A DNA stretch of 64,000 bases from a virus: the IMG/VR virus record IMGVR_UViG_3300032236_000803, positions 1 to 64,000 of that record; one strand, given 5' to 3'. Below the pieces are notes generated by a model. That model saw only the letters and a program-made list of their open reading frames with translations. It was not told the origin of the DNA and ran no database searches. Positions within the stretch are counted from its first letter, which is position 1; the number at the start of each line of letters is the position of its first letter. Made by a program: the position numbers and the translations under genes. This document shows, in pieces, positions 6,644 through 6,771 of the stretch.

Positions 6644-6771
6644 GCTGGATGTGCTTTTTATAATTACAGCTGTCTTACCATTCGACTTCATCCCAATTTT
6701 ATTGGGAAGGACGGAATCGAACCGCCTTTCGCTGTTTGACTTTATATAAATTAAGTTGCAGTAAACATCCA
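6644..6771 (-). ncRNA. Structured RNA motif copy 6: permuted tRNA-elbow mimic (YrlA-like topology)
   Basis: In order: TGGATGT-TTACTGCAA, ACAGC, T-arm GGCGG-TTCGATT-CCGTC, closed acceptor hairpin TCCCAAT-AAA-ATTGGGA, D-arm GTC-GAATGGTAA-GAC, GCTGT, ACATCCA. Confidence 0.85.

What the first reader, a model, noticed from the sequence alone, without database searches (positions are those of the whole stretch)
6644..6771. YrlA-topology tRNA-elbow mimic (copy 6)
The order is handle, ACAGC, T-arm (TTCGATT loop), acceptor helix sealed by an AAA loop with no CCA, D-arm with the GG dinucleotide, GCTGT, handle. The anticodon stem ACAGC/GCTGT opens into the handle instead of a loop. This matches the known YrlA architecture but with a different handle, suggesting a divergent or convergent Y RNA class that presents only the D/T elbow.
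Basis: partly seen in the sequence, partly recalled or inferred. Interest (0 to 1): 0.75.

Follow-up and report, generated by a model that had tools for sequence, protein, structure and literature searches.

The report
Phage Y-RNA-like tRNA elbow mimic
This 128-base stretch of an uncultured lake phage encodes a small RNA shaped like a tRNA with its anticodon loop swapped for a conserved "handle"; it is one of several such RNAs lined up in front of a gene for a Ro60-like ring protein, so it is most likely a viral, not yet described variant of the Ro60/Y-RNA particle.

Summary
On the minus strand, 6771-6644 reads closing helix (GGAUGU/ACAUCC), unpaired UUACUGCAA, anticodon-type stem ACAGC/GCUGU, T arm (loop UUCGAUU), acceptor-type hairpin sealed by AAA with no CCA, then a D arm with GG. 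Three orthologous copies keep 98.8% of 27 pairs, with 7 compensatory pairs.

The element is copy two of four tandem modules (6832-6368). Further modules lie at 4920-4864, 565-494 and 74-1. All share the same handle, and all sit on the strand of the gene at 6359-4926. That gene is Pfam DUF2828, and its AlphaFold model matches Ro60 structures over its full length.

The same handle lies beside DUF2828 genes in 57 of 79 further viral contigs, with 90 hits, all on the gene strand. It is also present in the Synechococcus, Mycobacterium and E. coli phages examined.

The topology is that of YrlA, but the Rfam YrlA model does not hit this copy, and the YrlA motif GNCGAA is replaced by CNGCAA. I therefore read it as a new variant of the Y RNA kind, bound by the Ro60-like protein and displaying a tRNA elbow. 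Binding, expression and the elbow fold are inferred, not shown, and a competing T-loop/D-arm duplex is not excluded.

The scan has noted this protein-handle system before on other DNA (at least 394 genomes). I found no paper that describes it.

The parts
6851..6879 (-). Promoter-like site in front of the array: TTTACT, 17 nt, TAAGAT, preceded by an A-tract.
   Evidence: Read from the sequence. The same arrangement stands in L001 and L002. It falls below the threshold of the simple scan, so it is an inference.
6777..6832 (-). Handle module 1, with minimal cargo.
   Evidence: CM R1 scores 46.9 bits, E 1e-10.
6644..6771 (-). The finding: handle module 2, carrying a permuted, sealed tRNA-like body without anticodon loop or CCA (YrlA topology).
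   Evidence: Sequence; strict handle pattern; covariation; CM R2 core hit at 6671-6726, 70 bits. That R2 hit is a seed sequence of the model, so it matches by construction.
6756..6764 (-). Unpaired handle motif UUACUGCAA (family consensus WUWC-N-GCAA).
   Evidence: C, G, C, A, A are invariant in A1 and in the 90-hit alignment A5.
6710..6726 (-). T arm, GGCGG-UUCGAUU-CCGUC.
6689..6709 (-). Acceptor-type hairpin closed by an AAA loop, with no CCA.
   Evidence: 5 of 7 counted pairs change on both sides among three orthologs.
6672..6686 (-). D arm with the GG dinucleotide.
   Evidence: Invariant in the three orthologs. GG is kept in 20/21 related cores.
6438..6630 (-). Handle module 3: a permuted, nearly complete tRNA with an internal ACCA and a 74-nt hairpin closing the acceptor.
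   Evidence: Sequence and fold; strict handle pattern.
6368..6434 (-). Handle module 4. Its 3' tail runs into the GAGG ribosome-binding site of the Ro60-like gene.
   Evidence: R1 scores 51.1 bits; sequence.
4926..6359 (-). Ro60-like protein gene (Pfam DUF2828 + DUF7788 vWA; phrog_850 'RNA-binding protein').
   Evidence: AlphaFold pLDDT 93.8. The top 12 Foldseek PDB hits are all Ro60/TROVE, full length. The MIDAS residues D283, S285, S287, T355 and D387 are invariant.
4864..4920 (-). Handle module 5, directly after the stop codon.
   Evidence: R1 scores 56.4 bits.
494..565 (-). Handle module 6.
   Evidence: R1 scores 50.1 bits.
1..74 (-). Handle module 7, with a T-arm cargo, cut off by the contig end.
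   Evidence: Sequence. R1 scores 16.2 bits on the partial copy.

Best explanation
The element is a gene for a small non-coding RNA. It belongs to a family that partners the phage's Ro60-like (DUF2828) protein, so it is a Y-RNA-like RNA of the YrlA layout.

Proposed working:
1. The array is transcribed with, or just ahead of, the Ro60-like gene from the promoter-like site at 6879-6851, and is then cut in the short A/U-rich spacers (inferred).
2. The closing helix, the unpaired WUWC-N-GCAA, the A-rich 3' strand and the trailing W-G form the common 'handle' that the ring protein recognises. This is inferred from strict co-occurrence and strand linkage, and by analogy with the stem-plus-bulge Ro60 site of Y RNAs.
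3. The interior folds as anticodon-type stem, T arm, sealed acceptor hairpin and D arm. This gives an L-shaped body whose only tRNA-specific surface is the D/T-loop elbow. The secondary structure is shown by covariation. The tertiary contact is inferred.
4. The elbow serves as an adaptor or bait. It would bring a tRNA-elbow-recognising factor to the ring protein, or hold it away from real tRNAs. Candidates are a host tRNA-processing or modifying enzyme, or a tRNA-directed defence nuclease. This step is speculative.

With neither an anticodon loop nor a CCA end, the RNA cannot decode or be charged.
For: Structure of this element
- In three orthologs, 98.8% of 27 pairs hold and 7 pairs are compensatory.
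- Across nine lineages the T / acceptor / D helices are 97.1% paired, and 12 of 16 pairs change on both sides.

The handle as a unit
- In 13 short modules, 6 of 8 helix pairs covary, around an invariant C-N-G-C-A-A.
- In 90 further hits the helix is 90.6% paired, against 33-42% when partners are slid.

Linkage to the protein
- In the contig, all handle hits lie at 1-6832 on the gene's strand.
- In whole records of Synechococcus phage BUCT-ZZ01, Mycobacterium phage Enceladus and E. coli phage REP6, the hits lie next to, or within 9 kb of, the homologous gene.
- In 79 other IMG/VR loci (507 kb, both strands), 90 hits at E<=1e-3 fall in 57 loci. All 90 are on the gene strand and none on the other.

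The protein
- The AlphaFold model has pLDDT 93.8. Its top 12 PDB matches are Ro60/TROVE over the full length: Xenopus, human, Deinococcus Rsr and Thermus phage phiLo, E 6e-9 to 2e-5.

Topology and elbow nucleotides
- Of 24 sealed permuted cores in these neighbourhoods, 23 have CNGCAA upstream. Eight or nine of the 24 have this element's loop-less topology.
- The elbow nucleotides of the T and D loops are conserved.
- Related modules score 34-42 bits (E 6e-6 to 1e-3) with the Rfam YrlA model.

Literature
- Bacterial and phage Ro60 bind neighbouring Y RNAs. YrlA mimics tRNA (PMC4201824). The phiLo Ro60 binds two upstream Y-like RNAs and host PNPase (PMC12135203).
- A Felixounavirus homologue, Bas63 gp130, counters the Ppl defence system. 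Its authors guessed at Y RNAs among its tRNA genes (bioRxiv 10.1101/2024.10.10.617714).
Against: - No expression, end-mapping or binding data were obtainable.
- This copy is not detected by the Rfam YrlA model.
- This copy is also missed by my short-module handle model R1, because of its 110-nt cargo.
- RNAfold and RNAalifold prefer pairing of the T loop (GUUCGAUU) with the D arm (AAGUCGAAU) in two of three orthologs, by 2-3 kcal/mol. Both segments are invariant, so covariation cannot decide. Only one compensatory T-stem pair, and the homology to other lineages, favour the cloverleaf.
- Position 8 is A rather than U, and 15/48 would be A/A, so some core tRNA tertiary pairs are not available.
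- Only three distinct orthologous copies of this exact element exist in the collections searched.
Confidence: 0.68

Rival explanations
1. The element is a cis-acting part of the 5' leader of the Ro60-like mRNA, not a free RNA. The tandem modules would be binding sites through which the protein controls stability or translation of its own message, and the tRNA-like body would be only a stabilising fold.
For: - The array lies between the promoter-like site and the gene.
- Module 4 ends in the ribosome-binding site.
- In many of the 79 loci a handle ends 10-80 nt before the start codon.
- No terminator-like site lies between the array and the gene.
Against: - Modules also lie after the stop codon and 4-6 kb downstream.
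- In Enceladus and REP6 they lie downstream of the gene, among tRNA genes.
- In BUCT-ZZ01 the handle sits in CCA-ended tRNAs. That points to processed, free RNAs.
- Autoregulation through module 4 and free partner RNAs are not mutually exclusive.
Confidence: 0.12
2. The cargo does not form a tRNA elbow. The T-loop sequence pairs with the D-arm sequence and extends the acceptor hairpin into one long irregular stem. On this reading the element is a handle RNA with a rod-like cargo, and its tRNA look is only ancestry.
For: - The alternative is the RNAalifold consensus, and it is part of the minimum free energy (MFE) fold in the window and L002 copies (-27.2 vs -25.3 and -31.4 vs -28.5 kcal/mol).
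- The D arm GUCGAAUGG is unusual and is invariant. It is also seen in the same topology in L108.
Against: - In L001 the cloverleaf is the better fold.
- The T-stem pair 51/63 changes C-G to U-A to U-G.
- Five of the six cores from other lineages fold by MFE into three separate hairpins (L012 does not), and the helices of all covary.
- G53, T54, C56, A58, C61 and the D-loop GG are kept. A plain duplex does not need them.
Confidence: 0.15
3. The element is a decaying, rearranged tRNA gene or a repeat bounded by inverted repeats, with no RNA-level function.
For: - It derives from tRNA sequence.
- The closing helix is formally an inverted repeat.
Against: - Compensatory changes keep every helix.
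- The unpaired motif is strand-specific and invariant.
- All 90 further copies share the orientation of the gene.
- The arrangement is kept from cyanophage-like viruses to mycobacteriophages.
Confidence: 0.03

Closest known systems
YrlA, the tRNA-mimicking Y RNA of bacteria and some phages (Rfam RF02553; Chen et al. 2014, PMC4201824)
   Same: - The order is 5'/3' closing stem, (variable arm), T arm, sealed acceptor-type hairpin, D arm.
- T- and D-loop nucleotides are conserved.
- It is encoded beside, and on the strand of, a Ro60-fold protein.
- Several copies can occur per locus.
- Related modules in sister loci score 34-42 bits with RF02553.
   Different: - This copy gives no RF02553 hit.
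- The protein-side motif is CNGCAA in an internal loop, with a trailing W-G, not GNCGAA(N)G.
- The partner protein is Pfam DUF2828, undetectable by sequence against solved Ro60 structures, not TROVE.
- The same handle carries many other cargoes: plain loops, anticodon arms, whole permuted tRNAs and CCA-ended tRNAs.
Thermus phage phiLo Ro60 with Yrl1/Yrl2 (PMC12135203; PDB 9KOP, 9L5Y)
   Same: - It is a phage Ro60-fold protein with Y-like RNAs encoded directly upstream.
- 9KOP is the top structural match of the protein here.
   Different: - The phiLo RNAs were picked by a CGAA motif, and that paper does not mention a tRNA-like domain.
- Protein identity is 15-16%.
Felixounavirus Bas63 gp130 (PhageMaP preprint, 10.1101/2024.10.10.617714)
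   Same: - REP6, another Felixounavirus, carries a homologue (about 40% identity) in the same position, directly upstream of the tRNA cluster.
- In REP6 I find four handle modules, one with permuted tRNA cargo, inside that tRNA cluster.
   Different: - That work reports a phenotype (countering the Ppl defence) and only guesses at Y RNAs.
- No RNA was defined there.
- No phenotype is known for the phage here.
Class I RNAs of dictyostelid amoebae (Rfam RF01414; PMC7919456)
   Same: - A roughly 6-bp stem joins the ends, with a conserved 5' G.
- An unpaired motif follows the 5' strand. The Rfam consensus prints CAGCAAU, followed by an A-run before the 3' strand.
- The 3' end is CUGU, and the interior is variable.
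   Different: - The RF01414 scores are not significant: 15 bits on module 1 against a cut-off of 41.5, and nothing on this element.
- Those RNAs are eukaryotic, about 60 nt long, and have no tRNA-like cargo.
- Their known binder is an RRM protein.
- The resemblance is a lead, not a membership.
Circularly permuted tRNA genes and two-piece (permuted) tmRNA
   Same: - The T arm and acceptor 3' strand are encoded ahead of the acceptor 5' strand and D arm.
- Weak partial hits to the cyano_tmRNA and tmRNA_permuted models cover the T arm plus hairpin.
   Different: - There is no anticodon loop, no CCA, no tag reading frame and no processing hairpin.
- The acceptor is simply sealed by three A's, so no functional tRNA or tmRNA can be made from this copy.

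Membership tests
YrlA (Rfam RF02553) | Scores at or above the gathering cut-off (69 bits) of the covariance model. | tested here: not met
   No hit on 6630-6785 at E<=10. The best hit in the whole contig is 11.5 bits, on the D arm of the neighbouring module.
YrlA (Rfam RF02553) | Order: closing stem, T arm, sealed acceptor-type stem-loop, D arm, closing stem. | tested here: met
   Sequence and covariation, compared with the consensus structure printed and the description in PMC4201824.
YrlA (Rfam RF02553) | GNCGAA(N0-1)G motif near the 5' end (proposed Ro60 contact). | tested here: not met
   The 5' part reads GGAUGU-UUACUGCAA. The family consensus is CNGCAA.
YrlA (Rfam RF02553) | tRNA-type T-loop and D-loop nucleotides conserved among homologues. 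| tested here: met
   T54, C56 and A58 in 21/21, U55 in 20/21, GG in 20/21. Invariant columns in A4.
YrlA (Rfam RF02553) | Encoded within 4 kb of, and on the same strand as, a Ro60 (TROVE) orthologue. | tested here: inconclusive
   It lies 285 nt upstream of, and on the strand of, a protein with the Ro60 fold. That protein is Pfam DUF2828, not TROVE, and shows no sequence match to solved Ro60 structures.
YrlA (Rfam RF02553) | Bound by Ro60, carries tRNA modifications, and is a substrate of tRNA enzymes. | not testable with these tools
   Needs experiments.
DUF2828-linked CNGCAA-handle RNAs (no published name; defined here by model R1) | Covarying closing helix starting with G, then 3-4 nt plus CNGCAA, an A-rich 3' side, and W-G after the helix. 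| tested here: met
   The strict pattern hits 6770-6645.
DUF2828-linked CNGCAA-handle RNAs (no published name; defined here by model R1) | Significant match to the covariance model R1. | tested here: inconclusive
   Only the 5' half matches (6729-6773, 10.5 bits). R1 was built from short modules and cannot span the 110-nt cargo.
DUF2828-linked CNGCAA-handle RNAs (no published name; defined here by model R1) | Same strand as, and close to, a DUF2828 gene. | tested here: met
tRNA (RF00005) | Open acceptor stem, anticodon loop, and standard order of arms. | tested here: not met
   No ARAGORN or Rfam tRNA call. The acceptor is sealed and there is no anticodon loop.
Dictyostelid Class I RNA (RF01414) | Score at or above 41.5 bits. 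| tested here: not met
   No hit on this element. Module 1 scores 15 bits.
Permuted / cyanobacterial tmRNA (RF04321, RF01851) | Full model match with a tag reading frame. | tested here: not met
   8-18 bits on the T arm plus hairpin only. ARAGORN finds no tmRNA here.

The most novel reading that the evidence does not exclude
The CNGCAA handle marks a second, very widespread Ro60-type ribonucleoprotein. Its protein family, DUF2828, has thousands of sequence clusters in phages, giant viruses and cells, and its RNA signature is the same as that of the unexplained Class I RNAs of social amoebae. Within this system, loop-less elbow modules such as this one would work as adaptors or baits that capture a tRNA-elbow-reading host factor, for example a tRNA-directed defence nuclease or a processing enzyme. 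That would make the particle a programmable anti-defence device whose cargo sets the target.
Probability: 0.1. Interest if true: 0.85.

Novelty: new variant of a known kind. Interest (0 to 1): 0.6.

Why it matters
DUF2828 is a very large protein family of unknown function. A profile-free search found 6466 clusters at 50% identity, and 710 deposited phage genomes carry a homologue, among them Felix O1-like, Listeria, Staphylococcus, Campylobacter, Vibrio and mycobacterial phages.

A defined RNA partner with a simple, searchable handle would give that family a testable biochemical role. It would also correct tRNA annotations in well-used phages: in REP6, a handle module is annotated as a 131-nt 'tRNA-Thr'. 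And it would extend the Ro60/Y RNA principle to a second protein lineage that recognises a different RNA motif.

The variety of cargo on one handle suggests a modular way of presenting tRNA surfaces. The cargoes seen are an elbow only, as here, anticodon arms, whole permuted tRNAs and CCA-ended tRNAs. This is of interest at a time when many anti-phage systems are known to cut tRNAs, and when one homologue (Bas63 gp130) has been tied to counter-defence.

Tried and rejected
- **A real or permuted functional tRNA.** Rejected: there is no anticodon loop, no CCA and the acceptor is sealed. ARAGORN finds only forced, intron-containing calls when run permissively.
- **tmRNA piece.** Only 8-18 bit partial matches.
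- **Membership in Rfam YrlA and in Dicty_Class_I_RNA.** Both tested and not met.
- **My first regex finders for modules and for T/D arms.** They were too noisy or too strict. I replaced them with covariance models R1 and R2 and a stricter pattern.
- **R2 hits.** 108 of 132 overlap ARAGORN tRNAs. These are mostly junctions of tandem tRNA genes, the artefact Chen et al. also describe. I discarded them.
- **More orthologues of this exact element.** An exact D-arm pattern search in IMG/VR returned only the two contigs already held. The metagenome scan added one copy identical to L002.
- **Neighbouring genes as conserved partners.** The ATP-grasp, DUF3307, Macro and YqeY-like genes are conserved only in the closest relatives, so I did not use them as evidence.
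- **Literature.** Searches for DUF2828, for Ro-like phage proteins and for Ro60/anti-defence found no description of this RNA family. The Burroughs and Aravind RNA-repair paper and the 2020 Annual Review on bacterial Ro60 are not in the library.

Full report
**What is in the sequence**

The feature lies on the minus strand of the first 64 kb of a 91-kb viral contig. CheckV estimates the contig at 55% complete. It carries PhoH, 2OG-Fe oxygenase, CHAP and many PHROG matches.

Read 5'->3' from 6771 to 6644, the element is, in order:
- a 7-bp closing helix (U-GGAUGU / ACAUCC-A)
- an unpaired UUACUGCAA
- an AU-rich linker
- ACAGC
- four variable bases
- a T arm, GGCGG-UUCGAUU-CCGUC
- a 9-pair hairpin closed by AAA, standing where the acceptor stem of a tRNA would be, with no CCA
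- AA
- a D arm, GUC(G)-AAUGGUAA-(A)GAC
- GCUGU, which pairs with ACAGC
- an A-rich linker
- the 3' strand of the closing helix, followed by G

.

ARAGORN and the Rfam tRNA model see only one ordinary tRNA in the window, tRNA-Asn at 1494-1569.

**Is it more than chance?**

The stretch folds 3.4 standard deviations better than its shuffles.

Three distinct orthologous copies exist: the window, L001, and L002 (identical to L019 and L020), from phages whose neighbouring protein is 81-93% identical. On their alignment, the proposed five helices keep 98.8% of 81 cells paired, against 30-51% when partners are slid. Seven pairs change on both sides.
- The acceptor-type hairpin has a wholly different sequence in each copy yet always pairs.
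- The anticodon-type stem changes from ACAGC/GCUGU to ACCGC/GCGGU.
- The D arm, the T loop and the closing helix are invariant.

**The element is one of a family**

Directly around it, on the same strand, lie other modules with the same frame. Four are in tandem at 6832-6368, separated by 6-15 nt. One lies right after the stop codon of the next gene (4920-4864), one at 565-494, and one is cut by the contig end (74-1).

The frame is as follows:
- a helix that starts with G, usually GG
- 3-4 bases
- C-N-G-C-A-A
- variable cargo
- an A-rich run
- the 3' strand of the helix
- W-G, mostly UGUU

In an alignment of 13 short modules from six viruses, the helix is 88.5% paired (shuffled 58%, slid 36-50%), with 6 of 8 pairs compensatory, around an invariant CNGCAA.

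A strict pattern for this frame matches five times in the whole 91-kb contig. All five are on the minus strand at 497-6829 and include this element. Simulated sequence gives 0.27 matches.

A covariance model of the short modules (R1) finds nothing credible elsewhere in the window on either strand. It does not span this element, because the 110-nt cargo is too long for it.

**The neighbour is a Ro60-fold protein**

The gene at 6359-4926 is Pfam DUF2828 + DUF7788 and PHROG 850, 'RNA-binding protein'. It has no sequence match to any solved structure.

Its AlphaFold model, built on 118 diverse homologues, is confident (pLDDT 93.8, pTM 0.92). The twelve best Foldseek matches in the PDB are all Ro60/TROVE proteins aligned over their whole length:
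- Thermus phage phiLo Ro60 (9KOP, 9L5Y)
- Xenopus Ro60 with Y RNA or misfolded RNA (1YVP, 2I91)
- Deinococcus Rsr (2NVO)
- human Ro60

E-values run from 6e-9 to 2e-5, and TM-scores reach 0.63. After these come only isolated vWA domains. The MIDAS residues of the vWA domain are invariant in the family.

**The pairing of handle and protein is general**

tblastn finds the protein in 710 deposited phage genomes. I read four named cases and related contigs.
- Synechococcus phage BUCT-ZZ01 has three modules upstream of the gene. Downstream it has two CCA-ended tRNAs in which the handle is a closed hairpin inserted in the anticodon stem.
- Mycobacterium phage Enceladus has three modules behind its 'Ro-like RNA binding protein', the middle one with permuted tRNA cargo.
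- E. coli Felixounavirus REP6 has four modules inside the tRNA cluster that follows the gene. One of them is annotated as a 131-nt tRNA-Thr.

In whole-record scans, the R1 hits are confined to the vicinity of the gene.

In 79 further IMG/VR loci chosen only by the protein (507 kb, both strands), R1 gives 90 hits at E<=1e-3 in 57 loci. All 90 are on the strand of the gene. Their helix again covaries, although that alignment was fitted to the model and so leans towards it.

**The tRNA-like cargo is general too**

A model of the T arm / sealed hairpin / D arm core (R2) gives 132 hits in these loci.
- 108 overlap ordinary tRNA genes. These are junctions of tandem tRNAs, and I discarded them.
- Of the 24 left, 23 have CNGCAA 16-42 nt upstream.
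- Eight or nine of the 24 have the topology of this element, with an anticodon-type stem closed by the flanks and no loop.

In 21 such cores, T54, C56, A58 and the closing G53-C61 are kept in 21/21, U55 in 20/21 and the D-loop GG in 20/21. The sealed hairpins share no sequence.

On nine cores from nine lineages the three helices are 97.1% paired, with 12 of 16 pairs compensatory.

**A caveat on the fold**

RNAfold and RNAalifold prefer, for this copy and for L002, a duplex between the T-loop sequence GUUCGAUU and the D-arm sequence AAGUCGAAU. That duplex would extend the hairpin into a rod. The cloverleaf is 2-3 kcal/mol worse in those two copies and is the better fold in L001.

Both segments are invariant, so covariation cannot choose between the folds. 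Three things favour the cloverleaf:
- one compensatory T-stem pair
- the retention of elbow nucleotides
- the clean three-hairpin folds of five of the six cores from other lineages (L012 is the exception)

Position 8 is A, and a 15/48 pair would be A/A, so the core is less tRNA-like than the elbow.

**Comparison with what is known**

YrlA RNAs (PMC4201824) have the same order of parts and sit next to Ro60. The Rfam consensus structure confirms this. But this copy is not hit by RF02553, and it lacks GNCGAA(N)G. Sister modules reach only 34-42 bits against a cut-off of 69. So the element works like a YrlA on present evidence, but it is not a member of that family as defined.

Two recent papers bear on the protein side:
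- The phiLo Ro60 binds two upstream Y-like RNAs and host PNPase (PMC12135203).
- The Felixounavirus protein Bas63 gp130 looks like Ro60, counters the Ppl defence system, and was guessed to use Y RNAs hidden among tRNA genes.

Neither paper defines this handle, and my searches found no paper that does.

Earlier notes of this scan report the same protein-handle system on other DNA, in at least 394 genomes. I reached the description independently before reading them.

Those notes also gave a lead that I checked in part. The handle has the layout of dictyostelid Class I RNAs:
- an end-joining 6-bp stem with a conserved 5' G
- an unpaired 11-nt motif
- a CUGU end

(PMC7919456). The Rfam consensus of that family prints CAGCAAU followed by an A-run. 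The model's scores here are not significant, however, so this stays a resemblance only.

**Most likely mechanism**

- Shown: the conserved secondary structure, the common handle, and the strand and position linkage to a Ro60-fold gene across distant phages.
- Inferred: that the protein binds the handle, that the modules are released as separate RNAs, and that the body forms an L with a D/T elbow.
- Speculative: that the elbow recruits or sequesters a factor that reads tRNA elbows, by analogy with Y RNAs tethering Ro60 to PNPase and in view of the counter-defence phenotype of a homologue.

The element cannot act as a tRNA.

**Verdict**

This is a real, conserved RNA element. It is best filed as a new variant of the Y RNA kind, with YrlA topology, a different handle and a different Ro60-like partner family.

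Noticed in passing
window 6368-6434 (minus) and gene start 6359: The fourth handle module ends in ...GUAAACC-UGUGAGG, so its 3' tail contains the ribosome-binding site of the Ro60-like gene. In many of 79 related loci a handle ends 10-80 nt before the start codon. This may allow autoregulation of translation by the protein.
   Followed up: partly
L013 (Synechococcus phage BUCT-ZZ01) 4600-4840: Two non-permuted, CCA-ended tRNAs carry the handle as a closed hairpin inserted in the 5' strand of the anticodon stem. If the 41-nt insert is ignored, one of them is a perfect tRNA-Asn(GUU). It is unclear whether the insert stays in the mature RNA or is removed.
   Followed up: partly
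L015 (Escherichia phage REP6) 4217-4990: Four handle modules lie inside the annotated tRNA cluster. The feature annotated 'tRNA-Thr GGT, 131 nt' (4824-4954) is really a handle module with a permuted, sealed tRNA body.
   Followed up: partly
window 6438-6630 (minus): The neighbouring module is a permuted, nearly complete tRNA. It has an internal ACCA and a 74-nt hairpin between the acceptor strands, and an anticodon-type loop CGUGUAA. Processing at the acceptor could give a two-piece, chargeable RNA, as in permuted tmRNA. Modules in other lineages often show Thr-type loops (CUUGUAA, CCGGUAA).
   Followed up: partly
window 513-674 (minus): A small ORF with CxC...CxxC cysteines overlaps the handle module at 565-494. 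It is unclear whether that module is an RNA gene, a regulatory site in an mRNA, or both.
   Followed up: no
window 3559-4466 (minus): A Macro-domain gene (PHROG 'phosphatase') and a YqeY/GatB-tail-like gene (a known tRNA-binding domain type) follow the Ro60-like gene on the same strand. They are conserved only in the closest relatives.
   Followed up: partly
window 7231-8619 (minus): The gene upstream of the array is an ATP-grasp protein with weak PurD-like (GARS_A/GARS_C) matches. Its substrate is unknown.
   Followed up: no
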